Assembly: GCF_006345805.1 (NCBI RefSeq)
Contig: NW_021833764.1
Span: 1-64,000 of the forward strand
Origin: Octopus sinensis
Lineage: Eukaryota
Direction: 5' to 3'
DNA length: 64,000 bases
Part shown: in pieces, positions 3,177-39,600 of the stretch
Position numbering within the stretch: position 1 is the stretch's first letter
Layout of the letters: each line of letters starts with the position of its first letter
Position numbers and translations under genes: made by a program
Notes under the pieces: generated by a model
The model's input: the letters and a program-made list of their open reading frames with translations, nothing else
Told to the model about the DNA's origin: nothing
The model's database searches: none

Positions 3177-3249
3177 CTACATGTGAATCATTGGTGATTT
3201 TTTCCTCCCTCTTCGTTTTCTCTCGGTCTTTCCTCTGTCTCCTGTTTCT

Positions 3250-3374
3250 TTCGGGGTCGATAAATTAGGTACCAGTTACGCACTCTGGTCGATATAATCG
3301 ACTTAATCCGTTTGTCTGTCCTTGTTTGTCCCCTCTGTATTTAGTTCCCCTTGTGGGCAATAAAGAAATAAGAA
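3250..3374 (+). mobile_element. 3' half of the Meta/MESC-domain SINE that gave rise to the 152-bp satellite
   Basis: ttcggggtcgataaattaggtaccagttacgcactctggtcgatataatcgacttaa matches the satellite monomer. It then continues tccgtttgtctgtcc...aataaagaaataagaa into a SINE body and tail. Confidence 0.8.
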
Positions 3375-8065: not shown

Positions 8066-8069
8066 TATC

Positions 8070-13259: not shown

Positions 13260-13267
13260 TATATATA

Positions 13268-15509: not shown

Positions 15510-15657
15510 TGTTTCGTTCACGTTCCGAGTTCAAATTCCACTGAGGTCGACTTTGTCTTTCATCCATTTTGGTGGTACCAGTTGCGTACTGGGGCCGATG
15601 TAGTCAACTTACAACTCCTCCCCCTCCTCGAAACTGCTGTCCTTGTGACAAAATTTG
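15510..15657 (+). mobile_element. Diverged Meta-domain SINE abutting the satellite
   Basis: cgttccgagttcaaattccactgaggtcgactttgtctttcatcc...taccagttgcgtactgggg, followed by a different tail (ctcctccccc...ccttgtgacaaaatttg). Confidence 0.75.
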
Positions 15658-18600
15658 TTAAGTGAATGATTTTTTTAAATGAATTATAAAATGTATTTCG
15701 TCTGCCGCTACGTTCTGAGTTCAAATTCCACCGAGGTCGACTTTGCCTTTCGTCCTTTCGGGGTCGATTAAATAAGTACCAGTTACGCACTGGGGTCGAT
15801 ATAATCGACTTAAGTGAATGATTTTTTTAAATGAATTATAAAATGTATTTCGTCTGCCGCTACGTTCTGAGTTCAAATTCCACCGAGGTCGACTTTGCCT
15901 TTCGTCCTTTCGGGGTCGATTAAATAAGTACCAGTTACGCACTGGGGTCGATATAATCGACTTAAGTGAATGATTTTTTTAAATGAATTATAAAATGTAT
16001 TTCGTCTGCCGCTACGTTCTGAGTTCAAATTCCACCGAGGTCGACTTTGCCTTTCGTCCTTTCGGGGTCGATTAAATAAGTACCAGTTACGCACTGGGGT
16101 CGATATAAATGATTTAAGTGAATGATTTTTTTAAATGAATTATAAAATGTATTTCGTCTGCCGCTACGTTCTGAGTTCAAATTCCACCGAGGTCGAATTT
16201 GCCTTTCGTCCTTTCGGGGTCGATTAAATAAGTACCAGTTACGCACTGGGGTCGATATAATCGATTTAAGTGAATGATTTTTTTAAATGAATTATAAAAT
16301 GTATTTCGTCTGCCGCTATGTTCTGAGTTCAAATTCCACCGAGGTCGACTTTGCCTTTCGTCCTTTCGGGGTCGATTAAATAAGTACCAGTTACGCACTG
16401 GGGTCGATATATCGATTTAAGTGAATGATTTTTTTAAATGAATTATAAAATGTATTTCGTCTGCCGCTATGTTCTGAGTTCAAATTCCACCGAGGTTGAC
16501 TTTGCCTTTCGTCCTTTCGGGGTCGATTAAATAAGTACCAGTTACGCACTGAGGTCGATATAATCGACTTAAGTGAATGATTTTTTAAAATGAATTATAA
16601 AATGTATTTCGTCTGCCGCTATGTTCTGAGTTCAAATTCAACCGAGGTCGACTTTGCCTTTCGTCCTTTCGGGGTCGATTAAATAAGTACCAGTTACGCA
16701 CTGGGGTCGATATAATCGACTTAAGTGAATGATTTTTTTAAACGAATTATAAAATGTATTTCGTCTGCCGCTCTGTTCTGAGTTCAAATTCCACCGAGGT
16801 CGACTTTGCCTTTCGTCCTTTCGGGGTCGATTAAATAAGTACCATTTACGCACTGGGGTCGATATAATCGATTTAAGTGAATGATTTTTTTAAATGAATT
16901 ATAAAATGTATTTCGTCTGCCGCTCTGTTCTGAGTTCAAATTCCACCGAGGTCGACTTTGCCTTTCGTCCTTTCGGGGTCGATTAAATAAGTACCAGTTA
17001 CGCACTGGGGTCGATATAATCGACTTAAGTGAATGATTTTTTTTAAATGAAATATAAAATGTATTTCGTCTGCCGCTACGTTCTGAGTTCAAATTCCACC
17101 GAGGTCGACTTTGCCTTTCGTCCTTTCGGGGTCGATTAAATAAGTACCAGTTACGCACTGGGTCGATATAATCGACTTAAGTGAATGATTTTTTTAAATG
17201 AAATATAAAATGTATTTCGTCTGCCGCTACGTTCTGAGTTCAAATTCCACCGAGGTCGACTTTGCCTTTGGTCCTTTCGGGGTCGATTAAATAAGTACCA
17301 GTTACGCACAGGTCGATAATCGACGACTTAAGTGAATGATTTTTTTAAATGAATTATAAAATGTATTTCGTCTGCCGCTACGTTCTGAGTTCAAATTCCA
17401 CCGAGGTCGACTTTGCCTTTCGTCCTTTCGGGGTCGATTAAATAAGTACCAGTTACGCACTGGGGTCGATATAATCGACTTAAGAGAATGATTTTTTTTA
17501 ATGAAATATAAAATGTATTTCGTCTGCCGCTACGTTCTGAGTTCAAATTCCACCGAGGTCGACTTTGCCTTTCGTCCTTTCGGGGTCGATTAAATAAGTA
17601 CCAGTTACGCACTGGGTCGATATAATCGACTTAAGTGAATGATTTTTTTAAATGAATTATAAAATGTATTTCGTCTGCCGCTCTGTTCTGAGTTCAAATT
17701 CCACCGAGGTCGACTTTGCCTTTCGTCCTTTCGGGGTCGATTAAATAAGTACCAGTTACGCACTGGGGTCGATATAAATGATTTAAGTGAATGATTTTTT
17801 TAAATGAATTATAAAATGTATTTCGTCTGCCGCTACGTTCTGAGTTCAAATTCCACCGAGGTCGAATTTGCCTTTCGTCCTTTCGGGGTCGATTAAATAA
17901 GTACCAGTTACGCACTGGGGTCGATATAATCGATTTAAGTGAATGATTTTTTTAAATGAATTATAAAATGTATTTCGTCTGCCGCTATGTTCTGAGTTCA
18001 AATTCCACCGAGGTCGACTTTGCCTTTCGTCCTTTCGGGGTCGATTAAATAAGTACCAGTTACGCACTGGGGTCGATATAATCGATTTAAGTGAATGATT
18101 TTTTTAAATGAATTATAAAATGTATTTCGTCTGCCGCTATGTTCTGAGTTCAAATTCCACCGAGGTTGACTTTGCCTTTCGTCCTTTCGGGGTCGATTAA
18201 ATAAGTACCAGTTACGCACTGAGGTCGATATAATCGACTTAAGTGAATGATTTTTTAAATGAATTATAAAATGTATTTCGTCTGCCGCTATGTTCTGAGT
18301 TCAAATTCAACCGAGGTCGACTTTGCCTTTCGTCCTTTCGGGGTCGATTAAATAAGTACCAGTTACGCACTGGGGTCGATATAATCGACTTAAGTGAATG
18401 ATTTTTTTAAACGAATTATAAAATGTATTTCGTCTGCCGCTATGTTCTGAGTTCAAATTCAACCGAGGTCGACTTTGCCTTTCGTCCTTTCGGGGTCGAT
18501 TAAATAAGTACCAGTTACGCACTGGGGTCGATATAATCGACTTAAGTGAATGATTTTTTTAAACGAATTATAAAATGTATTTCGTCTGCCGCTCGTTCTG

Positions 18601-21600
18601 AGTTCAAATTCCACCAGAGGTCGACTTTGCCTTTCGTCCTTTCGGGGTCGATTAAATAAGTACCAGTTACGCACTGGGGTCGATATAATCGATTTAAGTG
18701 AATGATTTTTTTAAATGAATTATAAAATGTATTTCGTCTGCCGCTCTGTTCTGAGTTCAAATTCCCCGAGGTCGACTTTGCCTCCTTTCGTCCTTTCGGG
18801 GTCGATTAAATAAGTACCAGTTACGCACTGGGGTCGATATAATCGACTTAAGTGAATGATTTTTTTAAATGAATTATAAAATGTATTTCGTCTGCCGCTA
18901 TGTTCTGAGTTCAAATTCCACCGAGGTCGACTTTGCCTTCGTCGTCCTTTCGGGGTCGATTAAATAAGTACCAGTTACGCACTGGGGTCGATATAATCGA
19001 CTTAAGTGAATGATTTTTTAAAATTAATTATAAAATGTATTTCGTCTGCCGCTATGTTCTAAGTTCAGATTCCACCGAGGTCGACTTTGCCTTTCGTCCT
19101 TTCGGGGTCGATTAAATAAGTACCAGTTACGCACTGGGGTCGATATAATCGACTTAAGTGAATGATTTTTTAAAATGAATTATAAAATGTATTTCGTCTG
19201 CCGCTATGTTCTGAGTTCAAATTCCACCGAGGTCGACTTTGCCTTTCGTCCTTTCGGGGTCCATTAAATAAGTACCAGTTACGCACTGGGGTCGATATAA
19301 TCGACTTAAGTGAATGATTTTTTTAAATGAAATATAAAATGTATTTCGTCTGCCGCTACGTTCTGAGTTCAAATTCCACCGAGGTCGACTATGACTTTCG
19401 TCCTTCGGGGTCGATTAAATAAGAGTACCAGTTACGCACTGGGGTCGATATAATCGACTTAAGTGAATGATTTTTTAAATGAAATATAAAATGTATTTCG
19501 TCTGCCGCTACGTTCTGAGTTCAAATTCCACCGAGGTCGACTTTGCCTTTCGTCCTTTCGGGGCCGATTAAATAAGTACCAGTTACGAACTGGGGTCGAT
19601 ATAATCGACTTAAGTGAATGATTTTTTTAAATGAAATATAAAATGTATTTCGTCTGCCGCTACGTTCTGAGTTCAAATTCCACCGAGGTCGACTTGCCTT
19701 TCGTTTCGTCCTTTCGGGGTCGATTAAATAAACCAGTTACGCACTGGGTCGATATAATCGACTTAAGTGAATGATTTTTTTAAATGAAATATAAAATGTA
19801 TTTCGTCTGCCGCTACGTTCTGAGTTCAAATTCCACCGAGGTCGACTTTGCCTTTGGTCCTTTCGGGGTCGATTAAATAAGTACCAGTTACGCACTGGGT
19901 CGATATAATCGACTTAAGTGAATGATTTTTTAAATGAATTATAAAATGTATTTCGTTGCCGCTACGTTCTGAGTTCAAATTCCACCGAGGTCGACTTTGC
20001 CTTTCGTCCTTTCGGGGTCGATTAAATAAGTACCAGTTACGCACTGGGGTCGATATAATCGACTTAAGAATGATTTTTTTAAATGAAATATAAAATGTAT
20101 TTCGTCAGCCGCTACGTTCTGAGTTCAAATTCCACCAGAGGTCGACTTTGCCTTTCGTCCTTTCGGGGTCGATTAAATAAGTACCAGTTACGCACTGGGG
20201 TCGATATAATCGACTTAAGTGAATGATTTTTTTAAATGAAATATAAAATGTATTTCGTCTGCCGCTACGTTCTGAGTTCAAATTCCACCGAGGTCGACTT
20301 TGCCTTTGCCTTTCGTCCTTTCGGGGTCGATTAAATAAGTACCAGTTACGCACTGGGTCGATATAATCGACTTAAGTGAATGATTTTTTTTAATGAATTA
20401 TAAAATGTATTTCGTCTGCCGCTACGTTCTGAGTTCAAATTCCACCGAGGTCGACTTTGCCTTTCGTCCTTTCGGGGTCGATTAAATAAGTACCAGTTAC
20501 GCACTGGGGTCGATATAATCGATTTAAGTGAAAGATTTTTTTAAATGAATTATAAAATGTATTTCGTCTGCCGCTACGTTCTGAGTTCAAATTCCACCGA
20601 GGTCGAATTTGCCTTTCGTCCTTTCGGGGTCGATTAAATAAGTACCAGTTACGCACTGGAGTCGATATAAACGATTTAAGTGAATGATTTTTTTAAATGA
20701 ATTATAAAATGTATTTCGTCTGCCGCTATGTTCTGAGTTCAAATTCCACCGAGGTCGACTTTGCCTTTCGTCCTTTCGGGGTCGATTAAATAAGTACCAG
20801 TTACGCACTGGGGTCGATATAATCGATTTAAGTGAATGATTTTTTAAAATGAATTATAAAATGTATTTCGTCTGCCGCTATGTTCTGAGTTCAAATTCCA
20901 ACGAGGTCGACTTTGCCTTTCGTCCTTTCGGGGTCGATTAAATAAGTACCAGTTACGCACTGGGTCGATATAATCGATTTAAGTGAATGATTTTTTAAAA
21001 TGAATTATAAAATGTATTTCGTCTGCCGCTATGTTCTGAGTTCAAATTCCACCGGTTGACTTTGCCTTTCGTCCTTTCGGGGTCGATTAAATAAGTACCA
21101 GTTACGCACTGGGGTCGATATAATCGATTTAAGTGAATGATTTTTTAAAATGAATATAAAATGTATTTCGTCTGCCGCTATGTTCTGAGTTCAAATTCCA
21201 CCGAGGTTGACTTTGCCTTTCGTCCTTTCGGGGTCGATTAAATAAGTACCAGTTACGCACTGGGGTCGATATAATCGACTTAAGTGAATGATTTTTTAAA
21301 ATGAATAATAAAATGTATTTCGTCTGCCGCTATGTTCTGAGTTCAAATTCCACCGAGGTCGACTTTGCCTTTCGTCCTTTCGGGGTCGGATTAAATAGTA
21401 CCAGTTACGCACTGGGGTCGATATAATCGACTTAAGTGAATGATTTTTTAAATGATTTATAAAATGTATTTCGTCTGCCGCTCTGTCTGAGTTCAAATTC
21501 CACCGAGGTCGACTTTGCCTTTCGTACTTCGGGGTCGATTAAATAAGTACCAGTTACGCACTGGGGTCGATATAATCGATTTAAGTGAATGATTTTTTTA

Positions 21601-24600
21601 AATGAATTAAAAATGTATTTCGTCCTGCCGCTAGGTTCTGAGTTCAAATTCCACCACCGAGGTCGACTTTGCCTTTCGTCCTTTCGGGGTCGATTAAATA
21701 AGTACCAGTTACGCACTGGCGTCGATATAATCGACTTAAGTGAATGATTTTTTAAAATGAATTATAAAATGTATTTCGTCTGCCGCTATGTTCTGAGTTC
21801 AAATTCCACCGAGGTCGACTTTGACTTTCGTCCTTTCGGGGTCGATTAAATAAGTACCAGTTACGCACTGGGGTCGATATAATCGACATAAGTAAATGAT
21901 TTTTTTAAATGAAATATAAAATGTGTTTCGTCTGCCGCTACGTTCTGAGTTCAAATTCCACCGAGGTCGACTATGACTTTCGTCCTTTCGGGGTCGATTA
22001 AATAAGTACCAGTTACGAACTGGGGTCGATATAATCGACTTAAGTGAATGATTTTTTTAAATGAAATATAAAATGTATTTCGTCTGCCGCTACGTTCTGA
22101 GTTCAAATTCCACCGAGGTCAACTTTGCCTTTCGTCCTTTCGGGGTCGATTAAATAAGTACCAGTTACGCACTGGGGTCGATATAATCGACTTATTAAGT
22201 GAATGATTTTTTTAAATGAAATATAAAATGTATTTCGTCTGCCGCTACGTTCTGAGTTCAAATTCAACCGAGGTCGACTTTGCCTTTCGTCCTTTCGGGG
22301 TCGATTAAATAAGTACCAGGTACGCACTGGGTCGATATAATCGACTTAAGTGAATGATTTTTTTAAATGAAATATAAAATGTATTTCGTCTGCCGCTACG
22401 TTCTGAGTTCAAATTCCACCGAGGTCAACTTTGCCTTTCGTCCTTTCGGGGTCGATTAAATAAGTACCAGTTACGCACTGGGGTCGATATAATCGACTAA
22501 AGTGAATGATTTTTTAAAATGAATTATAAAATGTATTTCGTCTGCCGCTACGTTCTGAGTTCAAATTCCACCGAGGTCGACTTTGCCTTTCGTCCTTTCG
22601 GGGTCGATTAAATAAGTACCAGTTACGCACTGGGGTCGATATAATCGATTTAAGTGAAAGATTTTTTTAAATGAATTATAAAATGTATTTCGTCTGCCGC
22701 TACGTTTCTGAGTTCAAATTCCACCGAGGTCGAATTTGCCTTCGTCCTTTCGGGGTCGATTAAATAAGTACCAGTTACGCACTGGAGTCGATATAAACGA
22801 TTTAAGTGAATGATTTTTTAAAATGAATTATAAAATGTATTTCGTCTGCCGCTATGTTCTGAGTTCAAATTCCACCGAGGTCGACTTTGCCTTCGTCCTT
22901 TCGGGGTCGATTAAATAAGTACCAGTTACGCACTGGGGTCGATATAATCGATTTAAGTGAATGATTTTTTAAAATGAATTATAAAATGTATTTCGTCTGC
23001 CGCTATGTTCTGAGTTCAAATTCCACCGAGGTTGACTTTGCCTTTCGTCCTTTCGGGGTCGATTAAATAAGTACCAGTTACGCACTGGGGTCGATATAAT
23101 CGATTTAAGTGAATGATTTTTTAAAATGAATTATAAAATGTATTTCGTCTGCCGCTATGTTCTGAGTTCAAATTCCACCGAGGTTGACTTTGCCTTTCGT
23201 CCTTTCGGGGTCGATTAAATAAGTACCAGTTACGCACTGGGGTCGATATAATCGACTTAAGTGAATGATTTTTTAAATGAATTATAAAATGTATTTCGTC
23301 TGCCGCTATGTTCTGAGTTCAAATTCCACCGAGGTCGACTTTGCCTTTCGTCCTTTCGGGGTCGATTAAATAAGTACCAGTTACGCACTGGGTCGATATA
23401 ATCGACTTAAGTGAATGATTTTTTTAAATGAATTAAAAATGTATTTCGTCTGCCGCTCTGTTCTTAGTTCAAATTCCACCGAGGTCGACTTTGCCTTTCG
23501 TACTTTTTCGGGTCGATTAATAAGTACCAGTTACGCCACTGGAGTCGATATAATCGATTTAAGTGAATGATTTTTTTAAATGAATTATAAAATGTATTTC
23601 GTCTGCCGCTATGTTCTGAGTTCAAATTCCACCGAGGTCGACTTTGCCTTTCGTCTTTCGGGGTCGATTAAATAAGTACCAGTTACGCACTGGCGGGTCG
23701 ATATAATCGACTTAAGTGAATGATTTTTTAAAATGAATTATAAAATGTATTTCGTCTGCCGCTATGTTCTGGGTTCAAATTCCACCGAGGTCGACTTGCC
23801 TTTCGTCCTTTCGGGGTCGATTAAATAAGTACCAGTTACGCACTGGGGTCGATATAATCGACATAAGTGAATGATTTTTTTAAATGAAATATAAAATGTG
23901 TTTCGTCTGCCGCTACGTTCTGAGTTCAATTCCACCGAGGTCGACTATGACTTTCGTCCTTTCGGGGTCGATTAAATAAGTACCATTACGCACTGGGGTC
24001 GATATAATCGACTTAAGTGAATGATTTTTTTAATGAAATATAAAATGTATTTCGTCTGCCGCTACTTTCTGAGTTCAAATTCCACCGAGGTCAACTTTGC
24101 CTTTCGACCTTTCGGGGTCGATTAAATAAGTACCGTTACGCACTGGGGTCGATATAATCGACTTAAGTGAATGATTTTTTTAAATGAAATATAAAATGTA
24201 TTTCGTCTGCCGCAACGTTCTGAGTTCAAATTCCACCGAGGTCGACTTTGCCTTTCATCCTTTCGGGGTCGATTAATAAGTAGCAGTTACGCACTGGGTC
24301 GATATAATCGACTTAAGTGAATGATTTTTTAAATGAAATATAAAATGTATTTCGTCTGCCGCTACGTTCTGAGTTCAAATTCCACCGAGGTCAACTTTGC
24401 CTTTCGTCCTTTCGGGATCGATTAAATAAGTACCATTACGCACTGGGGTCGATATAATCGACTTAAGTGAATGATTTTTTTAAATGAATTATAAAATGTA
24501 TTTCGTCTGCCGCTACGTTCTGAGTTCAAATTCCACCGAGGTCGACTTTGCCTTTCGTCCTTTCGGGGTCGATTAAATAAGTACCAGTTACGCACTGGGG

Positions 24601-27600
24601 TCGATATAATCGACTTAAGTGAATGATTTTTTTAAAATGAATATAAAATGTATTTCGTCTGCCGCTATGTTCTGAGTTCAATTCCACCGAGGTCGACTTT
24701 GCCTTTCGTCCTTTCGGGGTCGATAAATAAGTACCAGTTACGCACTGGGGTCGATATAATCGACTTAAGTGAATGATTTTTTTAAATGAATTATAAAATG
24801 TATTCGTCGGCTGCCGCTACGTTCTGGGTTCAAATTCCACCGAGGTCGACTTGCCTTTCGTCCTTTCGGGGTCGATTAAATAAGTACCAGTTACGCACTG
24901 GGTCGATATAATCGATTTAAGTGAATGATTTTTTTAAATGAAATATAAAATGTATTTCGTCTGCCGCTACGTTCTGAGTTCAAATTCCACCGAGGTCGAC
25001 TTTGCCTTTCGTCCTTTCGGGGTCGATTAAATAAGTACCAGTTACGCACTGGTGTCGATATAATCGACTTAAGTGAATGATTTTTTTAAATGAAATATAA
25101 AATGTATTTCGTCTGCCGCTACGTTCTGAGTTCAAATTCCACCGAGGTCAACTTCGCCTTTCGTCCTTTCGGGGTCGATTAAATAAGTTCCAGTTACGCA
25201 CTGGTGTCGATATAATCGACTTAAGTGAATGATTTTTTTAAATGAAATATAAAATGTATTTCGTCTGCCGCTACGTTCTGAGTTCAAATTCCACCGAGGT
25301 CGACTTTGCCTTTCGTCCTTTCGGGGTCGATTCGATTAATAAGTACAGTTACGCACTGGGTCGATATAATCGACTTAAGTGGATGATTTTTTTAAATGAA
25401 TATAAAATGTATTTCGTCTGCCGCTACGTTCTGAGTTCAAATTCCACCGAGGTCGACTTTGCCTTTCGTCCTTTCGGGGTCGATTATAAGTACCAGTTAC
25501 GCACTGGGGTCGATAAATCGACATAAGTGAATGATTTTTTTAAATGAATTATAAAATGTATTTCGTCTGCCGCTACGTTCTGAGTTCAATTCCACCGAGG
25601 TCGACTTTGCCTTTCGTCCTTTCGGGGTCGATTAAATAAGTACCAGTTACGCACTGGGGTCGATATAATCGACTTAGTGAATGATTTTTTTAAATGAATA
25701 TAAAATGTATTTCGTCTGCCGCTATGTTCTGAGTTCAAATTCCACGAGGTCGACTTTGCCTTTCGTCCTTCGGGGTCGATTAAATAAGTACCAGTTACGC
25801 ACTGGGGTCGATATAATCGACTTAAGTGATGATTTTTTTTTAATGAATTATAAAATGTATTTCGTCTGCCGCTACGTTCTGAGTTCAAATTCCACCGAGG
25901 TCGACTTGCCTTTCGTCCTTTCGGGGTCGATTAAATAAGTACCAGTTACGCACTGGGTCGATATAATCGATTTAAGTGAATGATTTTTTTAAATGAAATA
26001 TAAAATGTATTTCGTCTGCCGCTATGTTCTGAGTTCAAATTCCACCGAGGTCGACTTTGCCTTTCGTCCTTTCGGGGTCGATTAAATAAGTACCAGTACG
26101 CACTGGGGTCGATTAATCGACTTAAGTGAATGATTTTTTAAATGAATTACAAAATGTATTTCGTCTGCCGCTACGTTCTGAGTTCAAATTCCACCGAGGT
26201 CGACTTTGCTTTCGTCCTTTCGGGGTCGATTAAATAAGTACCAGTTACGCACTGGAGTCGATATAATCGACTTAAGTGAATGATTTTTTTAATGAAATAT
26301 AAAATGTATTTCGTCTGCCGCTACGTTCTGAGTTCAAATTCCACCGAGGTCGACTTTGCCTTTCGTCCTTTCAGGGTCGATTAAATAAGTACCAGTTACG
26401 CACTGGGGTCGATATAATCGACTTAGTGAATGATTTTTTTAAATGAATTATAAAATGTATTTCGTCTGCCGCTACGTTCTGAATTCAAATTCCACCGAGG
26501 TCGACTTGCCTTTCGTCCTTTCGGGGTCGATTAAATAAGTACCAGTTACCACTGGGGTCGATATATCGATTTAAGTGAATGATTTTTTTAAATGAATAAT
26601 ACATGTATTCGTCTGCCGCTATGTTCTTATTCAAATTCCACCGAGGTCGACTTTGCCTTTCGTCCTTTCGGGGTCGATTAAATAGTACCAGTTACGCACT
26701 GGGTCGATATAATCGATTTAATGAATGATTTTTTAAAATGAATTATAAAATGTATTCGTCTGCCGCTATGTTCTGAGTTCAAATTCCACCGAGGTCGACT
26801 TTGCCTTTCGTCCTTTCGGGGTCGATTAATAAGTACAGTTACGCACTGGGGTCGATATAATCGACTTAAGTGAATGATTTTTTAAATGAAATATAAAATG
26901 TATTTCGTCTGTCGCTACGTTCTGAGTTCAAATTCCACCGAGGTCGACTTTGCCTTTCGTCCTTTCGGGGTCGATTAAATAAGTACCAGTTACGCACTGG
27001 GTCGATAATCGACTTAAGTGAATGATTTTTTAAAATGAATATAAAATTATTTCGTCTGCCGCTATGTTCTGAGTTCAAATTCCACACCGAGGTCGACTTT
27101 GCCTTCGTCCTTTCGGGGTCGATTAAATAAGTAGCAGTTACGCACTGGGTCGATATAATCGACTTAAGTGAATGATTTTTTAAATGAAATATAAAATGTA
27201 TTTCGTCTGCCGCTACGTTCTGAGTTCAAATTCCACAGAGGTCGACTTTGCCTTTCGTCCTTTCGGGGTCGATTAAATAGTACCAGTTACGCACTGGGGT
27301 CGATATAATCGACTTAAGTGAATGATTTTTTTAAATGAATTATAAAATGTATTTCGTCTGCGCTACGTTCTGAGTTCAAATTCCACCGAGTCGACTTTGC
27401 CTTTCGTCCTTTCGGGGTCGATTAAATAAGTACCAGTTACGCACTGGGGTCGATATAATCGACTTAAGTGAATGATTTTTTTAATGAAATATAAAATGTA
27501 TTCGTCTGCCGCTACGTTCTGAGTTCAAATTCCACCAAGGTCGACTTTGCCTTTCGTCCTTTCGGGGTCGATTAATAAGTACCAGTTACGCACTGGGGTC

Positions 27601-30600
27601 GATATAATCGACTTAAGTGAATGATTTTTTAAATGAAATATAAAATGTATTTCGTCTGCCGCTAGTTCTGAGTTCAATTCCACCGAGGTCGACTTTGCCT
27701 TCGTCCTTTCGGGGTCGATTAAATAAGTACCAGTTACGCACTGGGGTCGATATAATCGACTTAAGTGAATGATTTTTTTAAATGAATTATAAAATGTATT
27801 TCCTCTGCCGCTACGTTCTGAGTTCAAATTCCACCGAGGTCGACTTTGCCTTTCGTCCTTTCGGGCGATTAAATAAGTACCAGTTACGCACTGGGGTCGA
27901 TATAATCGATTTAAGTGAATGATTTTTTTAAATGAAATAAAATGTATTTCGTCTGCCGCTATGTTCTGAGTTCAAATTCCACCGAGGTCGACTTTGCCTT
28001 TCGTCCTTTCGGGGTCGATTAAATAAGTACCAGTTACGCACTGGGGTCGATATAATCGACTTAAGTGAATGATTTTTTTTAATGAATTATAAAATGTATT
28101 TCGTCTGCCGCTATGTTCTGAGTTCAAATTCCCGAGGTCGACTTTGCCTTTCGTCCTTTCGGGGTCGATTAATAAGTACCAGTTACGCACTGGGGTCGAT
28201 ATAATCGACTTAAGTGAATGATTTTTTTAAATGAAATATAAAATGTATTTCGTCTGCCGCTACGTTCTGAGTTCAAATTCCACCGAGTCGACTTTGCCTT
28301 TCGTCCTTTCGGGGTCGATTAAATAAGTACCAGTTACGCACTGGGGTCGATATAATCGACTTAAGTGAATGATTTTTTTAAATGAAATATAAAATGTATT
28401 TCGTCTGCCGCTACGTTCTGAGTTCAAATTCCACCGAGGTCGACTTTGCCTTTCGTCCTTTCGGGGTCGATTAATAAGTACCAGTTACGCACTGGGGTCG
28501 ATTAATCGACTTAAGTGAATGTTTTTTTAATGAAATATAAAATGTATTCGTCTGCCGCGACGTTCTGAGTTCAAATTCCACCGAGGTCGACATTGCCTTC
28601 GTCCTTTCGGGGTCGATTAAATAAGTAGCAGTTACGCACTGGGTCGATATAATCGACTTAAGTGAATGATTTTTTTAAAATGAATAATAAAATGTATTTC
28701 GTCTGCCGCTACGTTCTGAGTCAAATTCCACCGAGGTCGACTTTGCCTTTCGTCCTTTCGGGGTCGATTAAATAAGTACCAGTTACGCACTGGGTCGATA
28801 TAATCGACTTAAGTGAATGATTTTTTTAAATGAAATATAAAATGTATTTCGTCTGCCGCTACGTTCTGAGTTCAAATTCCACGAAGGTCGACTTTGCCTT
28901 TCGTCCTTTCGGGGTCGATTAAATAAGTACCAGTTACGCACTGGGGTCGATATAATCGACTAAGTGAATGATTTTTTTAAATGAAATATAAAATGTATTC
29001 GTTGCCGCTATGTTCTGAGTTCAAATTCCACCGAGGTTCACTTTGCCTTTCGTCCTTTCGGGGTCGATTAAATAAGTACCAGTTACGCACTGGGGTCGAT
29101 ATAATCGACTTAAGTGAATGATTTTTTTAAATGAAATATAAAATGTATTTCGTCCGCCGCTCTACGTTCTGAGTTCAAATTCCACCGAGGTCGACTTTGC
29201 CTTCGTCCTTTCGGGGTCGATTAATAAGTACCAGTTACGCACTGGGGTCGATATAATCGACTTAAGTGAATGATTTTTTAAATTAAATATAAAATGTATT
29301 TCGTCTGCCGCTATGTTCTGAGTTCAAATTCCACCGAGGTCGACTTTGCCTTTCGTCCTTTCGGGGTCGTTAAAATAAGTACCAGTTACGCACTGGGGTC
29401 GATATAATCGACTTAAGTGAATGACTTTTTTAAATGAATATAAAATGTATTTCGTCTGCCGCTACGTTCTGAGTTCAAATTCCACCGAGGTCGACTTGCC
29501 TTTCGTCCTTTCGGGGTCGATTAATAAGTACCAGTTACGCACTGGGGTCGATATAATCGACTTAAGTGAATGATTTTTTTAAAAAAATGATTATAAATGT
29601 ATTTCGTCTGCCGCTCTGTTCTGAGTTCAAATTCCACCACCGGGGTCGACTTGCCTTTCGTCGTCCTTTCGGGGTCGATTAAATAGTACCAGTTACGCAC
29701 TGGGGTCGATATAATCGATTTAAGTGAATGATTTTTTAAAATGAATTATAAAATGTATTTCGTCTGCCGCTATGTCTGATTTCAAATTCCACCGAGGTCG
29801 ACTTTGCCTTTCGTCCTTTCGGGGTCGATTAAATAGTACCAGTTACGCACTGGGTCGAATAATCGACTTAAGTGAATGATTTTTTTAAATGAATTATAAA
29901 ATGTATTTCGTCTGCCGCTATGTTCTGATTCAAATTCCACCGAGGTCGACTTTGCTTTTGTCCTTTCGGGGTCGATTAATAAGTACCAGTTACGCACTGG
30001 GGTCGATATAATCGACTTAAGTGAATGATTTTTTTTAATGAATTATAAAATGTATTTCGTCTGCCGCTACGTTTCTGAGGTTCAATTCCACCGAGGTCGA
30101 CTTTGCCTTTCGTCCTTTCGGGGTCGATTAAATAAGTACCAGTTACGCACTGGGGTCGATATAATCGACTTAAGTGAATGATTTTTTTAAATGAAATATA
30201 AAATGTATGTCGTCTGCCGCTACGTTCTGAGTTCAAATTCCACCGAGGTCGACTTTGCCTTTCGTCCTTTCGGGGTCGCTTAAATATGTACCAGTTACGC
30301 ACTGGGGTCGATATAATCGACTTAAGTGAATGATTTTTTTAAATGAAATATAAAATGTAGTTCGTCTGCCGCTATGTTCTGAGTTTAAATTCCACCGAGG
30401 TCGACTTTGCGTTTCGTCCTTTCGGGGTCGATTAAAAAGTACCAGTTACGCACTGGGGTCGATATAATCGACTTAAGTGAATGATTTTTTTAAATGAATT
30501 ATAAAATGTATTTCGTCTGCGTCTGCCGTACGTTCTGAGTTCAAATTCCACCGAGTTCGACTTTGCCTTTCGTTCCTTTCGGGGTCGATTAAATAAGTAC

Positions 30601-33600
30601 CAGTTACGCACTGGGGTCGATATAATCGACTTAGTGAATGATTTTTTAAATGAAATATAAAATGTATTTCGTCTGCCGCTACGTTCTGAGTTCAAATTCC
30701 ACCGAGGTCGACTTGCCTTTCGTCGTTTCGGGGTCGATTAATAAGTACCAGTTACGCACTGGGGTCGATATAATCGACTTAAGTGAATGATTTTTTAAAT
30801 GAAATATAAAATGTATTTCGTCTGCCGCTACGTTCTGAGTTCAAATTCCACCGAGGTCGACTTGCCTTTCGTCCTTTCGGGGTCGATTAAATAAGTACCA
30901 GTTACGCACTGGGGTCGATATAATCGACTTAAGTGAATGATTTTTTTAAATGAAATATAAAATGTATTTCGTCTGCGCTACGTTCTGAGTTCAAATTCCA
31001 CCGAGGTCGACTTTGCCTTTCGTCCTTTCGGGGTCGATTAAATAAGTACCAGTTACGCACTGGGGTCGATATAATCGACTTAAGTGAATGATTTTTTTAA
31101 ATGAATATAAAATGTATTTCGTCTGCCGCGACGTTCTGAGTTCAAATTCCACCGAGGTCGACTTTGCCTTTCGTCCTTTCGGGGTCGATTAATAAGTACC
31201 AGTTACGCACTGGGGTCGATATAATCGACTTAAGTGAATGATTTTTTTAAATGAAATATAAAATGTATTTCGTCTGCCGCTACGTTCTGAGTTCAAATTC
31301 CACCGAGGTCGACTTTGCCTTTCGTCCTTTCGGGGTCGATTAAATAAGTACAGTTACGCACTGGGGTCGATATAATCGACTTAAGTGAATGATTTTTTTA
31401 AATGATTATAAAATGTATTTCGTCTGCCGCTACGTTCTGAGTTCAAATTCCACCGAGGTCGACTTTGCCTTTCGTCCTTTCGGGGTCGATTAAATAAGTA
31501 CCAGTTACGCACTGGGGTCGATATAATCGACTTAAGTGAATGATTTTTTAAATGAAATATAAAATGTATTTCGTCTGCCGCTACGTTCTGAGTTCAAATT
31601 CCACCAAGGTCGACTTTGCCTTTCGTCCTTTCGGGGTCGATAAATAAGTACCAGTTACGCACTGGGGTCGATATAATCGACTTAAGTGATGATTTTTTTA
31701 AATGAAATATAAAATGTATTCGTCTGCCGCTATGTTCTGAGTTCAAATTCCACCGAGGTCGACTTTGCCTTTCGTCCTTTCGGGGTCGATTAAATAAGTA
31801 CCAGTTACGCACTGGGGTCGATATAATCGACTTAAGTGATGATTTTTTTAATGAATTATAAAATGTATTTCCTCTGCCGCTACGTTCTGAGTTCAAATTC
31901 CACCGAGGTCGACTTTGCCTTTCGTCCTTTCGGGGTCGATTAAATAAGTACCAGTTACGCACTGGGGTCGATATATCGACTTAAGTGAATGATTTTTTAA
32001 AATTAAATATAAAATGTATTTCGTCTGCCGCTATGTTCTGAGTTCAAATTCCACCGAGGTCGACTTTGCCTTTCGTCCTTTCGGGGTCGATTAAATAAGT
32101 ACCAGTTACGCACTGGGGTCGATATAATCGACTTAAGTGAATGACTTTTTTAAATGAATTATAAAATGTATTTCGTCTGCCGCTACGTTCTGAGTTCAAA
32201 TTCCACCGAGGTCGACTTTGCCTTTCGTCCTTTCGGGGTCGATTAAATAAGTACCAGTTACGCACTGGGGTCGATATAATCGATTTAAGTGAATGATTTT
32301 TTTAAATGAATTATAAAATGTATTTCGTCTGCCGCTATGTTCTGAGTTCAAATTCCACCGAGGTCGACTTTGCCTTTCGTCCTTTCGGGGTCGATTAAAT
32401 AAGTACCAGTTACGCACTGGGGTCGATATAATCGACTTAAGTGAATGATTTTTTAGATGAATTATAAAATGTATTTCGTCTGCCGCTATGTTCTGAGTTC
32501 AAATTCCACCGAGGTCGACTTTGCCTTTCGTCCTTTCGGGGTCGATTAAATAAGTACCAGTTACGCACTGGGGTCGATATAATCGACTTAAGTGAATGAT
32601 TTTTTTAAATGAAATATAATATGTATTTCGTCTGCCGCTACGTTCTGAGTTCAAATTCCACCGAGGTCGACTTTGCCTTTCGTCCTTTCGGGGTCGATTA
32701 AATAAGTACCAGTTACGCACTGGGGTCGATATAATCGACTTAAGTGAATGATTTTTTTAAATGAAATATAAAATGTATTTCGTCTGCCGCTACGTTCTGA
32801 GTTCAAATTCCACCGAGGTCGACTTTGCCTTTCGTCCTTTCGGGGTCGATTACATAAGTACCAGTTACGCACTGGGGTCGATATAATCGACTTAAGTGAA
32901 TGATTTTTTTAAATGAAATATAAAATGTATTTCGTCTGCCGCGACGTTCTGAGTTCAAATTCCACCGAGGTCGACTTTGCCTTTCGTCCTTTCGGGGTCG
33001 ATTAAATAAGTAGCAGTTACGCACTGGGTCGATATAATCGACTTAAGTGAATGATTTTTTTAAATGAAATATAAAATGTATTTCGTCTGCCGCTACGTTC
33101 TGAGTTCAAATTCCACCGAGGTCGACTTTGCCTTTCGTCCTTTCGGGGTCGATTAAATAAGTACCAGTTACGCACTGGGGTCGATATAATCGACTTAAGT
33201 GAATGATTTTTTTTAAATGAAATATAAAATGTATTTCGTCTGCCGCTACGTTCTGAGTTCAAATTCCACGAAGGTCGACTTTGCCTTTCGTCCTTTCGGG
33301 GTCGATTAAATAAGTACCAGTTACGCACTGGGGTCGATATAATCGACTTAAGTGAATGATTTTTTTAAATGAAATATAAAATGTATTTCGTTTGCCGCTA
33401 TGTTCTGAGTTCAAATTCCACCGAGGTCGACTTTGCCTTTCGTCCTTTCGGGGTCGTTTAAATAAGTACCAGTTACGCACTGGGGTCGATATAATCGACT
33501 TAAGTGAATGATTTTTTTAAATGAATTATAAAATGTATTTCGTCCGCCGCTACGTTCTGAGTTCAAATTCCACCGAGGTCGACTTTGCCTTTCGTCCTTT

Positions 33601-36600
33601 CGGGGTCGATTAAATAAGTACCAGTTACGCACTGGGGTCGATATAATCGACTTAAGTGAATGATTTTTTAAAATTAAATATAAAATGTATTTCGTCTGCC
33701 GCTATGTTCTGAGTTCAAATTCCACCGAGGTCGACTTTGCCTTTCGTCCTTTCGGGGTCGATTAAATAAGTACCAGTTACGCACTGGGGTCGATATAATC
33801 GACTTAAGTGAATGACTTTTTTAAATGAATTATAAAATGTATTTCGTCTGCCGCTACGTTCTGAGTTCAAATTCCACCGAGGTCGACTTGCCTTTCGTCC
33901 TTTCGGGGTCGATTAAATAAGTACCAGTTACGCACTGGGGTCGATATAATCGACTTAGGTGAATGATTTTTTAAAATGAATTATAAAATGTATTTCGTCT
34001 GCCGCTCTGTTCTGAGTTCAAATTCCACCGAGGTCGACTTTGCCTTTCGTCCTTTCGGGGTCGATTAAATAAGTACCAGTTACGCACTGGGGTCGATATA
34101 ATCGATTTAAGTGAATGATTTTTTAAAATGAATTATAAAATGTATTTCGTCGTCTGCCGCTATGTTCTGAGTTCAAATTCCACGAGGTCGACTTTGCCTT
34201 TCGTCCTTTCGGGGTCGATTAAATAAGTACAGTTACGCACTGGGGTCGATATAATCGACTTAAGTGAATGATTTTTTAAATGAAATATAAAATGTATTTC
34301 GTCTGCCGCTATGTTCTGAGTTCAAATTCCACCGAGGTCGACTTTGCCTTTTGTCCTTCGGGGTCGATTAAATAAGTACCAGTTACGCACTGGGGTCGAT
34401 ATAATCGACTTAAGTGAATGATTTTTTTAAATGAAATATAAAATGTATTTCGTCTGCCGCTACGTTCTGAGTTCAAATTCCACCGAGGTCGACTTTGCCT
34501 TTCGTCCTTTCGGGGTCGATTAAATAAGTACCAGTTACGCACTGGGGTCGATATAATCGACTTAAGTGAATGATTTTTTAAATGAAATATAAAATGTATT
34601 TCGTCTGCCGCTACGTTCTGAGTTCAAATTCCACCGAGGTCGACTTTGCCTTTCGTCCTTTCGGGGTCGATTAAATAAGTACCAGTTACGCACTGGGGTC
34701 GATATAATCGACTTAAGTGAATGATTTTTTAAATGAAATATAAAATGTATTCGTCTGCCGCTATGTTCTGAGTTTAAATTCCACCGAGGTCGACTTTGCG
34801 TTTCGTCCTTCGGGGTCGATTAAATAAGTACCAGTTACGCACTGGGTCGATATAATCGACTTAAGTGAATGATTTTTTTAATGAATTATAAAATGTATTT
34901 CGTCTGCCGCTACGTTCTGAGTTCAAATTCCACCGAGGTCGACTTTGCCTTTCGTCCTTTCGGGGTCGATTAAATAAGTACCAGTTACGCACTGGGGTCG
35001 ATATAATCGACTTAAGTGAATGATTTTTTTAATGAATTATAAAATGTATTTCGTCTGCCGCTACGTTCTGAGTTCAAATTCCACCGAGGTCGACTTTGCC
35101 TTTCGTCCTTTCGGGGTCGATTAAATAAGTACCAGTTACGCACTGGGGTCGATATAATCGACTTAAGTGAATGATTTTTTTAAATGAAATATAAAATGTT
35201 CGTCTGCCGCTACGTTCTGAGTTCAAATTCCACCAGGTCGACTTTGCCTTTCGTCCTTTCGGGGTCGATTAAATAAGTACCAGTTACGCACTGGGGTCGA
35301 TATAATCGACTTAAGTGAATGATTTTTTAAATGAAATATAAAATGTATTTCGTCTGCCGCTATGTTCTGAGTTCAAATTCCACCGAGGTCGACTTTGCCT
35401 TCGTCCTTTCGGGGTCGATTAAATAAGTACCAGTTACGCACTGGGGTCGATATAATCGACTTAAGTGAATGATTTTTTAAATGAATTATAAAATGTATTT
35501 CCTGCCGCTACGTTCTGAGTTCAATTCCACCGAGGTCGACTTTGCCTTTCGTCCTTTCGGGGTCGATTAAATAAGTACCAGTTACGCACTGGGGTCGATA
35601 TAATCGACTTAAGTGAATGATTTTTTAAAATTAAATATAAAATGTATTTCGTCTGCCGCTATGTTCTGAGTTCAAATTCCACCGAGGTCGACTTTGCCTT
35701 TCGTCCTTTCGGGGTCGATTAAATAAGTACCAGTTACGCACTGGGGTCGATATAATCGACTTAAGTGAATGATTTTTTAAATGAATTATAAAATGTATTT
35801 CGTCTGCCGCTACGTTCTGGGTTCAAATTCCACCGAGGTCGACTTGCCTTTCGTCCTTTCGGGGTCGATTAAATAAGTACCAGTTACGCACTGGGTCGAT
35901 ATAATCGATTAAGTGAATGATTTTTTAAATGAAATATAAAATGTATTTCGTCTGCCGCTATGTTCTGAGTTCAAATTCCACCGAGGTCGACTTTGCCTTT
36001 CGTCCTTTCGGGGTCGATTAAATAAGTACCAGTTACGCACTGGGGTCGATATAATCGACTTAAGTGAATGATTTTTAGATGAATATAAAATGTATTTCGT
36101 CTGCCGCTATGTTCTGAGTTCAAATTCCACCGAGTCGACTTTGCCTTTCGTCCTTTCGGGGTCGATTAAATAAGTACCAGTTACGCACTGGGGTCGATAT
36201 AATCGACTTAAGTGAATGATTTTTTAAATGAAATATAATATGTATTTCGTCTGCCGCTACGTTCTGAGTTCAAATTCCACCGAGGTCGACTTTGCCTTTC
36301 GTCCTTTCGGGGTCGATTAATAAGTACCAGTTACGCACTGGGGTCGATAATCGACTTAAGTGAATGATTTTTTTAAATGAAATATAAAATGTATTTCGTC
36401 TGCCGCTACGTTCTGAGTTCAAATTCCACCGAGGTCGACTTTGCCTTTCGTCCTTTCGGGGTCGATTAAATAAGTACCAGTTACGCACTGGGGTCGATAT
36501 AATCGACTTAAGTGAAATTTTTTTTTTAAATGAAATATAAAATGTATTTCGTCTGCCGCGACGTTCTGAGTTCAAATTCACCGAGGTCGACTTTGCCTTT

Positions 36601-39600
36601 CGTCCTTTCGGGGTCGATTAAATAAGTAGCAGTTACGCACGGGTCGATATAATCGACTTAAGTGAATGATTTTTTAAATGAAATATAAATGTATTTCGTC
36701 TGCCGCTACGTTCTGAGTTCAAATTCCACCGAGGTCGACTTTGCCTTTCGTCCTTTCGGGGTCGATTAAATAAGTACCAGTTACGCACTGGGGTATATAA
36801 TCGACTTAAGTGAATGATTTTTTTAAATGAAATATAAAATGTATTTCGTCTGCCGCTACGTTCTGAGTTCAAATTCCACGAAGGTCGACTTTGCCTTTCT
36901 GTCGTCTTTCGGGTCGATTAAATAAGTACCAGTTACGCACTGGGGTCGATATAATCGACTTAAGTGAATGATTTTTTTAAATGAATATAAAATGTATTTC
37001 GTTTGCCGCTATGTTCTGATTCAAATTCCACCGAGGTCGACTTTGCCTTTCGTCCTTTCGGGGTCGTTTAAATAAGTACCAGTTACGCACTGGGGTCGAT
37101 ATAATCGACTTAAGTGAATGATTTTTTAAATGAATTATAAAATGTATTTCGTCGCCGCCGCTACGTTCTGAGTTCAATTCCACCGAGGTCGACTTTGCCT
37201 TTCGTCCTTTCGGGGTCGATTAAATAAGTACCAGTTACGCACTGGGTCGATATAATCGACTTAAGTGAATGATTTTTTAAAATTAAATATAAAATGTATT
37301 TCGTCTGCCGCTATGTTCTGATTCAAATTCCACCGAGGTCGACTTTGCCTTTCGTCCTTTCGGGGTCGATTAAATAAGTACCAGTTACGCACTGGGGTCG
37401 ATATAATCGACTTAAGTGAATGACTTTTTTAAATGAAATTATAATGTATTTCGTCTGCCGCTACGTTCTGAGTTCAAATTCCACCGAGGTCGACTTGCCT
37501 TTCGTCTTCGGGGTCGATTAAATAAGTACCAGTTACGCACTGGGGTCGATATAATCGACTTAGGTGAATGATTTTTTAAATGAATTATAAAATGTATTTC
37601 GTCTGCCGCTCTGTTCTGAGTTCAAATTCCACCGAGGTCGACTTTGCCTTTCGTCCTTTCGGGGTCGATTAAATAAGTACCAGACGCACTGGGGGGACGA
37701 TAATCGATTTAAGTGAATGATTTTTTAAATGAATTATAAAATATTTCGTCTGCCGCTATGTTCTGAGTTCAAATTCCACCGAGGTCGACTTTGCCTTTCG
37801 TCCTTTCGGGGTCGATTAAATAAGTACCAGTTACGCACTGGGGTCGATATAATCGACTTAAGTGAATGATTTTTTAAATGAATTATAAAATGTATTTCGT
37901 CTGCCGCTATGTTCTGAGTTCAAATTCCACCGAGGTCGACTTTGCCTTTTGTCCTTTCGGGGTCGATTAAATAAGTACCAGTTACGCACTGGGGTCGATA
38001 TAATCGACTTAAGTGAATGATTTTTTTTAATGAATTATAAAATGTATTTCGTCTGCCGCTACGTTCTGAGTTCAAATTCCACCGAGGTCGACTTTGCCTT
38101 TCGTCCTTTCGGGGTCGATTAAATAAGTACCAGTTACGCACTGGGGTCGATATAATCGACTTAAGTGAATGATTTTTTTAAATAAAATATAAAATGTATT
38201 TCGTCTGCCGCTACGTTCTGAGTTCAAATTCCACCGAGGTCGACTTTGCCTTTCGTCCTTTCGGGGTCGATTAAATATGTACCAGTTACGCACTGGGGTC
38301 GATATAATCGACTTAAGTGAATGATTTTTTTAAATGAAATATAAAATGTATTCCGTCTGCCGCTATGTTCTGAGTTTAAATTCCACCGAGGTCGACTTTG
38401 CGTTTCGTCCTTTCGGGGTCGATTAAATAAGTACCAGTTACGCACTGGGGTCGATATAATCGACTTAAGTGAATGGTTTTTTTAAATGAATTATAAAATG
38501 TATTTCGTCTGCCGCTACGTTCTGAGTTCAAATTCCACCGAGGTCGACTTTGACTTTCGTCCTTTCGGGGTCGATTAAATAAGTACCAGTTACGCACTGG
38601 GGTCGATATAATCGACTTAAGTGAATGATTTTTTTAAATGAATTATAAAATGTATTTCGTCTGCCGCTACGTTCTGAGTTCAAATTCCACCGAGGTCGAC
38701 TTTGCCTTTCGTCCTTTCGGGGTCGATTAAATAAGTACCAGTTACGCACTGGGGTCGATATAATCGACTTAAGTGAATGATTTTTTTTAAATGAAATATA
38801 AAATGTATTTCGTCTGCCGCTACGTTCTGAGTTCAAATTCCACCAAGGTCGACTTTGCCTTTCGTCCTTTCGGGGTCGATTAAATAAGTACCAGTTACGC
38901 ACTGGGGTCGATATAATCGACTTAAGTGAATGATTTTTTTAAATGAAATATAAAATGTATTTCGTCTGCCGCTATGTTCTGAGTTCAAATTCCACCGAGG
39001 TCGACTTTGCCTTTCGTCCTTTCGGGGTCGATTAAATAAGTACCAGTTACGCACTGGGGTCGATATAATCGACTTAAGTGAATGATTTTTTTAAATGAAT
39101 TATAAAATGTACTTCCTCTGCCGCTACGTTCTGAGTTCAAATTCCACCGAGGTCGACTTTGCCTTTCGTCCTTTCGGGGTCGATTAAATAAGTACCAGTT
39201 ACGCACTGGGGTCGATATAATCGACTTAAGTGAATGATTTTTAAAATTAAATATAAAATGTATTTCGTCTGCCGCTATGTTCTCAGTTCAAATTCCACCG
39301 AGGTCGACTTTGCCTTTCGTCCTTTCGGGGTCGATTAAATAAGTACCAGTTACGCACTGGGGTCGATATAATCGACTTAAGTGAATGACTTTTTTAAATG
39401 AATTATAAAATGTATTTCGTCTGCCGCTACGTTCTGAGTTCAAATTCCACCGAGGTCGACTTTGCCTTTCGTCCTTTCGGGGTCGATAAATAAGTACCAG
39501 TTACGCACTGGGGTCGATATAATCGATTTAAGTGAATGATTTTTTAAAATGAATTATAAAATGTATTTCGTCTGCCGCTATGTTCTGAGTTCAAATTCCA

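What the first reader, a model, noticed from the sequence alone, without database searches (positions are those of the whole stretch)
15658..15809. The founding event of the satellite is still readable at the array ends
Seen: the array begins (15658-15694) and ends (48468-48503) with the same linker, TTAAGTGAATGATTTTTT(T)AARTGAATTATAAAATGT, giving n SINE pieces and n+1 linkers. After the last linker the sequence runs straight into the GAAT-rich flank, whose composition the linker shares. The SINE piece stops at GAC-TTAA, whereas the free SINE at 3300 continues TTAAtccg, so TTAA is shared with the linker start. Both terminal linkers carry GAATTAT; the GAAATAT variant occurs only inside the array. 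Inference: a tail-less SINE fragment was copied in by microhomology-mediated templated repair with a 36-37 bp site duplication, rather than by retrotransposition. The resulting direct repeat then seeded unequal-exchange or rolling-circle expansion.
Basis: partly seen in the sequence, partly recalled or inferred. Interest (0 to 1): 0.75.

Follow-up and report, generated by a model that had tools for sequence, protein, structure and literature searches.

The report
SINE insertion grown into a satellite
A 115-letter piece of a jumping gene (SINE) plus 37 letters of local DNA is repeated 217 times at a single spot in a likely octopus genome; it likely began as one insertion that duplicated its landing site and likely grew by repeated unequal exchange, an arrangement already described in a clam and in flies.

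Summary
Observation confirmed: 217 units and 218 linkers (15658-48503), the same linker at both ends, and both junctions found nowhere else in the 2.7-Gb assembly. The linker is not SINE sequence and matches the GAAT-rich right flank. The SINE piece also lacks its 49-nt head, with GT and TTAA microhomologies.

A single insertion with a 35-37 bp duplication is the simplest origin (about 0.7), but no empty allele was seen in the 5 runs laid, and no laid run showed the right junction. 'Not retrotransposition' is unsupported: both breaks fall at predicted loops of the SINE RNA, the 5' break equals the family's fixed multimer joint, and a tail-less head fragment inside an 8-bp repeat lies 700 bp away. 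I slightly favour internally primed reverse transcription (0.43) over DNA repair (0.27). Changing higher-order periods point to stepwise unequal exchange. Related runs hold roughly 0 to 100 units.

The architecture is known (TSD-(SINE-TSD)n in blood clam; Drosophila R1 array). The scan earlier noted SINE multimers and a SINE-head satellite elsewhere in this genome, not this locus.

The parts
15658..48503 (+). Satellite array: 217 units of about 152 bp (linker + SINE piece) and one extra terminal linker
   Evidence: both junctions unique to this contig
15658..15694 (+). First linker (37 nt), left copy of the inferred site duplication
   Evidence: flank-linker-SINE join also in a contig of run X18
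15693..15813 (+). Central piece of a 232-nt SINE (positions 50-170), head-less and tail-less; unambiguous core 15695-15809
   Evidence: exact 121-nt copy only in this array
15693..15694 (+). GT microhomology at the 5' junction; same position as the family's 184-bp multimer joint, 1-3 nt past a predicted hairpin loop
15810..15813 (+). TTAA microhomology at the 3' junction; predicted mostly unpaired in SINE RNA
48468..48503 (+). Terminal linker (36 nt), with a G absent from all 217 unit linkers; holds a 10-bp internal repeat whose second part (48484-48503) is 20 nt
   Evidence: not seen in the 4 runs
15520..15657 (+). Older, diverged SINE copy with a different tail, ending exactly at linker 1 (left flank)
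   Evidence: 75% to the unit piece; aligned to an old-type copy in L126
48504..61276 (+). GAAT-rich right flank, including a 16-bp satellite of about 717 copies (49191-60573)
   Evidence: 48468-48600 has no second full match in the genome
14923..14968 (-). 30-nt SINE head fragment (14961-14932) starting at SINE position 1, tail-less, between 8-bp direct repeats (14968-14961 and 14930-14923)
3248..3370 (+). Free 3' part of the same SINE, showing the normal continuation after TTAA

Best explanation
The array is 217 head-to-tail copies of one SINE fragment plus one local linker at a single locus; it likely began as one insertion that duplicated 35-37 bp of its target, likely made by reverse transcription of SINE RNA primed internally at UUAA, and likely grew by stepwise unequal exchange. 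Inferred steps: (1) a staggered break 35-37 bp wide opened at the edge of a GAAT-rich region; (2) the target end TTAA annealed to an unpaired UUAA inside the SINE RNA and primed cDNA; (3) copying ended at the apex of the head hairpin, where head-less units of this family always start, and joined through GT; (4) the long direct repeat gave enough homology for a first misaligned exchange, making linker-SINE-linker-SINE-linker; (5) later exchanges copied blocks of 11-29 units. Shown: anatomy, uniqueness, microhomologies, block structure, presence of the locus in related runs. Not shown: the empty site, the template, the enzyme. No function is proposed: the unit lacks the SINE head and is likely neutral. 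Odds for steps 1, 4 and 5 whatever the template: about 0.7.
For: n+1 linkers, with both array ends exactly at SINE/linker boundaries. Single locus. The linker belongs by composition to the right flank. Microhomologies of 4 and 2 nt have a joint chance of about 0.004 in random junctions, and the longer one lies at the SINE's 3' end at the start of the duplication, the geometry of target priming. In 13 of 14 headed copies the 5' break lies 1-3 nt past a predicted hairpin loop; TTAA has mean unpaired probability 0.75, reached by 9.7% of windows. Tail-less retropseudogenes end in loops, pair 2-18 nt with the target, were screened with TSDs of 8-35 nt, and include 5'+3'-truncated forms (PMC5322556). 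Internal priming leaves TSDs, also at staggered breaks, while the two non-classical doubly truncated Alu insertions described lack them (PMC5402677). The 5' break equals the multimer joint seen in 13 of 30 loci. A tail-less fragment with an 8-bp repeat lies nearby. A non-LTR element array with 33-nt duplications exists (PMC5932611). Local periods of 13, 29, 24 and 8 units; lag 24 has z -7.1.
Against: No empty allele and no right junction were seen in any run laid (4 runs, 4, 5 different in all). In 26 distinct clusters of this SINE the adjacent exact repeats were 8-19 bp (about 10 clusters; none over 19), so 35-37 bp is about twice the family norm. The TTAA break is not recurrent: 0 of 30 loci ending GACTTAAG are tail-less insertions with a duplication, and 28 continue into the tail. 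0 of 30 loci have non-SINE DNA joined at the 5' break. The RNA structure is predicted only, was examined after the fact, and single-stranded DNA could fold alike. Three loci carry a joint variant that would give 7 nt of microhomology to the linker end, which explains the 5' coincidence with a DNA donor as well. Terminal and unit linkers differ by one base and one T.
Confidence: 0.43

Rival explanations
1. One reading: during repair or replication restart the end of the linker switched to a genomic SINE copy or multimer, copied 115 bp, and returned 36 bp upstream at TTAA (MMBIR/TMEJ-like), giving the same direct repeat with no RNA step.
For: Microhomology at both junctions; duplication far longer than the family's 8-19 bp; no tail; over 14,500 potential donors; an A-rich joint variant offers 7 nt of homology. 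Templated insertions with microhomology, one with a duplication at the insertion site, are described for large human rearrangements (PMC5120786, passages).
Against: No donor found: the exact piece occurs only here, the two outside carriers of the 63-nt core differ elsewhere (L065 at 5 of 121), and the best of 30 sampled copies matches 119 of 121. The captured DNA is pure SINE with both ends at predicted RNA loops. The repair-type Alu insertions in PMC5402677 lack duplications.
Confidence: 0.27
2. Multi-step origin: an ordinary-sized insertion duplicated only the last 18-20 bp of the linker (which also begins with TTAA); slippage at the linker's internal 10-bp repeat then made the 152-bp unit, and a later deletion between linker ends produced the full terminal linker.
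For: The terminal linker has a 10-bp internal repeat and its second part is 20 nt, close to the family's TSD range. The terminal G is in 0 of 217 unit linkers, as a crossover would leave it.
Against: It needs two further out-of-register events, and the 20-bp repeat would more readily give a 136-bp unit; unit lengths are 147-158 bp. One substitution in 36 bp is also expected from age (2 private changes in 121 nt of the piece) or from assembly error (61 singleton substitutions in 217 units).
Confidence: 0.17
3. The right end is a later join or an assembly join: the array once ended otherwise and was fused to the GAAT region at a linker end, so n+1 says nothing about the founding event.
For: Runs X18 and X19 hold the left flank and the linker but showed no contig over 48504-48557. 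The contig is only 76,486 bp and indel-rich (1.75 indel bases per unit).
Against: A random join would fall within a few bases of the linker end only about 3% of the time. The linker's TGAAT content matches the right flank, not the left. The read tool drops human-like repeats without notice, so a hole in GAAT-rich DNA proves nothing.
Confidence: 0.1
4. The linker is part of a SINE subfamily, or the monomer is a dispersed satellite family.
For: The family does build head-less 184-bp multimers from the same 5' point.
Against: All 136 and all 174 exact junction matches lie in this window; 94 of 98 hits to the shorter 5' junction are in the window and the other 4 are SINE-internal variants.
Confidence: 0.03

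Closest known systems
TSD1-(SINE-TSD1)n arrays of the blood clam S. broughtonii (PMC11481361; passages of sections 5, 12, 15, 16 and reference 84)
   Same: Highly similar SINE copies cut at one 3' position, separated and flanked by the same short local sequence; ascribed to unequal recombination between target duplications; also a mollusc.
   Different: There 4-15 units and TSDs of 6-18 bp for the SINEs screened; here 217 units (33 kb), a 35-37 bp spacer, a piece cut at both ends, and higher-order blocks.
R1 tandem array and TE dimers of Drosophila (McGurk and Barbash 2018, PMC5932611; passages)
   Same: A non-LTR element array with units separated by a long (33-nt) target duplication that records the origin site, expanded by unequal exchange and variable in copy number.
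   Different: Whole autonomous elements in rDNA, seeded by double insertion. Here a 115-bp non-autonomous fragment at unique DNA; two private variants in the unit consensus fit one founder.
SINE-derived satellites (sSat) of squamates (Vassetzky et al. 2023, PMC10702118; abstract, Background, start of Results, Discussion and found passages)
   Same: Tandem units of 70-290 nt shorter than the parent SINE, a few to about 1000 per locus, copy number varying between orthologous loci.
   Different: Most sSats keep a longer terminal unit reaching the SINE's end (in-place duplication) and occur at many loci. This array has neither head nor tail at its ends, holds non-SINE spacer DNA and is single-locus.
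Tailless retropseudogenes and internally primed Alu insertions (PMC5322556, PMC5402677; passages)
   Same: 3'-truncated RNA copies with target duplication, short target complementarity and ends at RNA loops.
   Different: Described for mammalian L1; no partner LINE was identified here, and those insertions are not reported as satellite seeds in the passages read.
Alu target-site triplication (Lee et al. 2015)
   Same: By its title and its citation in PMC11481361, TSD-mediated tandem Alu copies.
   Different: Not read: the paper is not held; only its reference line was seen.

Membership tests
TSD1-(SINE-TSD1)n array | Highly similar SINE copies cut at the same 3' position | tested here: met
   217 units, mean pairwise substitution 2.4%, common end GAC/GAT
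TSD1-(SINE-TSD1)n array | Same non-SINE spacer between all units and at both ends (n+1) | tested here: met
   218 linkers; not SINE sequence
TSD1-(SINE-TSD1)n array | Spacer is a true target duplication (empty allele with one copy) | tested here: inconclusive
   No empty allele in 5 runs; composition fits the right flank
TSD1-(SINE-TSD1)n array | Spacer length in the family's usual TSD range | tested here: not met
   35-37 bp against 8-19 bp exact repeats in 26 clusters. The paper does not define the array class by TSD length.
SINE-derived satellite (sSat) | At least four internal units made of part of a SINE | tested here: met
SINE-derived satellite (sSat), major type | Longer terminal unit reaching the SINE head or tail | tested here: not met
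   No head on the + strand upstream and no tail downstream in the window; the paper lists minor variants without such a unit
SINE-derived satellite (sSat) | Subtelomeric or heterochromatic position | not testable with these tools
   76-kb contig without a known chromosome position
Internally primed (tailless) retro-insertion | 3' end complementary to the target by 2-18 nt, at a loop or single-stranded RNA site | tested here: met
   4-nt TTAA; predicted unpaired 0.41/0.79/0.90/0.89; prediction only
Internally primed (tailless) retro-insertion | Made by a LINE reverse transcriptase from RNA | not testable with these tools
   Junction sequence cannot separate RNA from DNA templates; partner LINE not searched
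DNA-templated repair insertion (MMBIR/TMEJ) | Identifiable genomic donor | tested here: inconclusive
   No exact donor; only 30 of over 14,000 copies aligned
tRNA-derived SINE | tRNA-like head with Pol III boxes | tested here: inconclusive
   ARAGORN found 0 genes in 5 loci; resemblance to A and B boxes is recalled, from no call. Dispersed 232-nt copies with TSDs are shown.
Rolling-circle concatemer | One uniform period across the array | tested here: not met
   Best local lags 13, 29, 24 and 8 in different parts; an early rolling-circle step is not excluded

The most novel reading that the evidence does not exclude
A loop-cleaved, head-less SINE RNA was internally primed into a wide staggered break, and its unusually long site duplication seeded a satellite in one step. 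Living relatives still hold the whole series: no insertion (label C), an unexpanded or barely expanded founder (run X18, label D), about 10 units (X19) and 100-217 units (X17, this assembly). The same loop-cut RNAs would also explain the family's fixed multimer joint.
Probability: 0.2. Interest if true: 0.68.

Novelty: new member of a known kind. Interest (0 to 1): 0.4.

Why it matters
The first duplication that seeds a complex satellite is rarely traceable. Here the origin site, both junctions and the parent element are readable at base level at one locus, and related animals seem to carry very different unit numbers. If the empty and single-unit alleles are recovered, the locus gives a dated series from insertion to a 33-kb array. 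It would also test whether rare long target duplications are what turn ordinary SINE insertions into satellites. The architecture itself is in print, and no function is indicated.

Tried and rejected
Empty allele: sought by laying contigs or reads of X17, X18, X19, X7 on the left end and X18, X19, X21, X7 on the right end. X7 (label C) holds part of the left flank but 0 records lay on the right end, and 48504-48557 had no matching contig in X18 or X19; the tool filters records, so these holes are not counted as absence. Second haplotype or paralogue in the assembly: none (left flank's next-best match 69-77%; right end unique). Exact donor SINE: none. Recurrent break at TTAA: rejected, 0 of 30. 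Recurrent non-SINE join at the 5' break: 0 of 30. Linker-like source elsewhere in the window: only weak local matches. 'Both ends GAATTAT' as evidence of ancestry: weak alone; better support is that the linker contigs of X18 and X19 are all of that type. ARAGORN: 0 tRNA genes in 5 loci. The full linker pattern could not be searched as one degenerate pattern, so linker copies without an adjacent SINE piece are covered only by the similarity search, which scores 40 of 50 candidates. Earlier-findings look-ups near the window, by sequence and by words returned nothing. Eight paper searches listed no paper on this locus or on octopus SINE satellites; this rests on titles and abstract starts. No supplements were read; the sSat supplementary figures may show arrays closer to this one.

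Full report
WHAT IS THERE. The window is G000:C10235:1-64000, a 76,486-bp contig of a 2.72-Gb assembly. 'Octopus' is my recollection of the SINE sequence and the wording of earlier notes; no call names the organism. From 15658 to 48503 lies a tandem array of 217.2 x 152 bp. Splitting it by alignment gives 217 units and one further linker, so 218 linkers. Each unit is a 37-nt AT-rich linker followed by 115 nt of a SINE. GAAATAT is found only inside (86 of 217 unit linkers; GAATTAT 92; other forms 39). The last linker has a G that none of the 217 unit linkers has.

THE SINE PIECE IS CUT AT BOTH ENDS. A 35-nt stretch from the start of the piece has 14,511 exact matches in the genome. The 30 loci fetched show a 232-nt element with a 49-nt head. 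The array piece is positions 50-170. It lacks the head as well as the tail, shares GT with the end of the linker and TTAA with its start. In a null of random junctions between this SINE and local DNA, at least 4 nt of microhomology occurs in 1.4% and at least 2 nt in 15%; jointly about 0.4%. The unit differs from the 30-copy majority at two private sites (15730, 15752).

ONE LOCUS, AND THE LINKER IS LOCAL DNA. The linker-to-SINE junction has 136 exact matches in the genome and 136 in the window; the SINE-to-linker junction has 174 and 174. The exact 121-nt piece has 25 matches, all in the array. The left flank has no second close copy and the right end none. The linker is not found upstream of the piece in any of 30 loci (16 head, 13 tail joint, 1 scored other that reads by eye as a diverged head), nor downstream in any of 30. 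It carries two TGAAT motifs, like the right flank (5 in 150 bp) and unlike the left (0 in 758 bp); 2 of 1112 background windows do so. The left flank is an older SINE with another tail that ends right at linker 1, so the predicted empty site would be old SINE, linker, GAAT flank.

RELATIVES. Twenty of 24 listed runs hold part of the left end; five were laid. X18 (label D) has one 134-nt contig running from the left flank through the linker into the SINE with 1 difference, no fork at the linker start, and no SINE-to-linker contig. X19 (label E) has a SINE-to-linker contig and two linker-to-SINE variants, so a tandem array. X17 (label B) has a 60-nt linker-to-SINE contig with 7 further letters unlike the flank. 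X7 (label C) holds part of the flank and no linker. X21 (label B, raw reads, 1934 Mb) had 0 reads on the linker, where about 131 are expected for 217 units and 3 for 5 units. Rough linker-to-flank depth ratios are about 107 for X17, 9-14 for X19, 3-10 for X18 and none for X7; they halve if the flank contig is one haplotype, and the tool warns that contig depth is not copy number. So the insertion likely predates the split of these lineages (flanks differ at 5 of 394 to 9 of 382 letters), and the large expansion is likely recent or lineage-limited. Against my reading: no empty allele appeared, and neither the terminal linker nor 48504-48557 was seen in any of the four runs. That junction rests on the assembly alone.

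RNA OR DNA TEMPLATE. That does not follow. Tail-less retrocopies with target duplications arise by internal priming, end in RNA loops and pair 2-18 nt with the target (PMC5322556, passages). Internal priming can use staggered breaks and leaves duplications, whereas the two doubly truncated non-classical Alu insertions described lack them (PMC5402677, passages). Three local facts lean the same way. First, 700 bp upstream a 30-nt head fragment of this SINE starts at position 1, has no tail, and sits between 8-bp direct repeats. Second, the 5' break is the point at which the family's head-less 184-bp multimer units begin (13 of 30 loci); earlier notes describe these multimers. Third, in 13 of 14 headed copies that point lies 1-3 nt past the loop of a predicted head hairpin (z -2.8 against mononucleotide shuffles), and TTAA is predicted mostly unpaired (mean 0.75; 9.7% of windows reach 0.7). 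Against: family duplications are 8-19 bp in about 10 of 26 distinct clusters, with none longer; the TTAA break does not recur (0 of 30); the fold is a prediction examined after the fact; and a rare joint variant at 3 loci would give a DNA donor 7 nt of homology. A long duplication is also what one would expect to survive as a satellite seed (inference), and the Drosophila R1 array has 33-nt duplications (PMC5932611, passages). I give 0.43 to internal priming, 0.27 to DNA-templated repair, 0.17 to a multi-step route through a 20-bp duplication, 0.10 to a later or artefactual right join and 0.03 to a dispersed family.

GROWTH. Units differ by 2.4% substitutions on average. Shared variants recur at lags of 11, 13, 24 and 29 units (lag 24: z -7.1 against shuffled order), and the best lag changes along the array: 13 in units 1-100, 29 then 24 in the middle, 8 at the right end. 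This shows a real biological array and favours repeated block duplication by unequal exchange over a single rolling-circle event. The 1.75 indel bases per unit are likely partly long-read error.

COMPARISON AND NOVELTY. The arrangement TSD1-(SINE-TSD1)n, with SINEs cut at one 3' position and separated by the same duplication, is described in the blood clam at 4-15 units and ascribed to unequal recombination between duplications (PMC11481361, passages). SINE-derived satellites of up to about 1000 units are described in squamates, mostly with a longer terminal unit that this array lacks (PMC10702118; abstract, Background, start of Results, Discussion). This locus is a new and unusually large member: 217 units, a doubly cut piece, a long spacer, one site, and graded unit numbers in relatives. 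Eight searches listed no paper on it (listings only). The scan's notes on other parts of this genome report SINE multimers and a 112-unit SINE-head satellite; nothing on this locus.

VERDICT. Observation confirmed; interpretation partly supported. Interest 0.4. It would rise to about 0.68 if empty and single-unit alleles are recovered and head-less SINE RNA is shown.

Noticed in passing
window 14923-14968 (- strand): A 30-nt SINE head starting at position 1, tail-less, between 8-bp direct repeats: a likely tail-less retrocopy.
   Followed up: partly
L095-L124 (G000:C1, e.g. L110 1093-2743 as oriented): The SINE forms multimers with two fixed joints (184-bp and about 209-bp periods). The 184-bp joint sits at the apex of a predicted RNA hairpin, so loop cleavage plus template jumping is an untested alternative to the self-targeting reading in earlier notes. 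Several last units carry a different tail.
   Followed up: partly
window 49191-60573: A 16-bp GAAT-type satellite of about 717 copies directly beyond the array; a roughly 80-bp non-periodic block recurs on both sides of it (48627, 48915, 61064), so it too may have grown inside an older duplication.
   Followed up: partly
window 15510-15657: The older SINE at the left flank also appears to begin near the same head-less start point, after a GT microsatellite, and has a 12-bp internal deletion.
   Followed up: partly
window 12460-13694 and 4760-8073: A 401-bp unit repeated 3 times, and a TATG microsatellite of about 834 copies.
   Followed up: no
L117 about 1683-1830 (as oriented): The 3' end of one SINE plus flanking DNA is tandemly repeated at least three times (unit about 52 bp): a small tail-plus-flank array.
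   Followed up: no
runs X17, X3-X5, X21: Runs under the one label B differ strongly: share of words 0.63 against 0.32-0.41, and about 100 units against no reads. The label may cover two lineages, or the array is polymorphic.
   Followed up: no
L031 (G000:C10235:64001-74000): The sequence beyond the window holds further short repeats and a stretch that looks like a LINE reverse-transcriptase fragment; seen by eye only.
   Followed up: no
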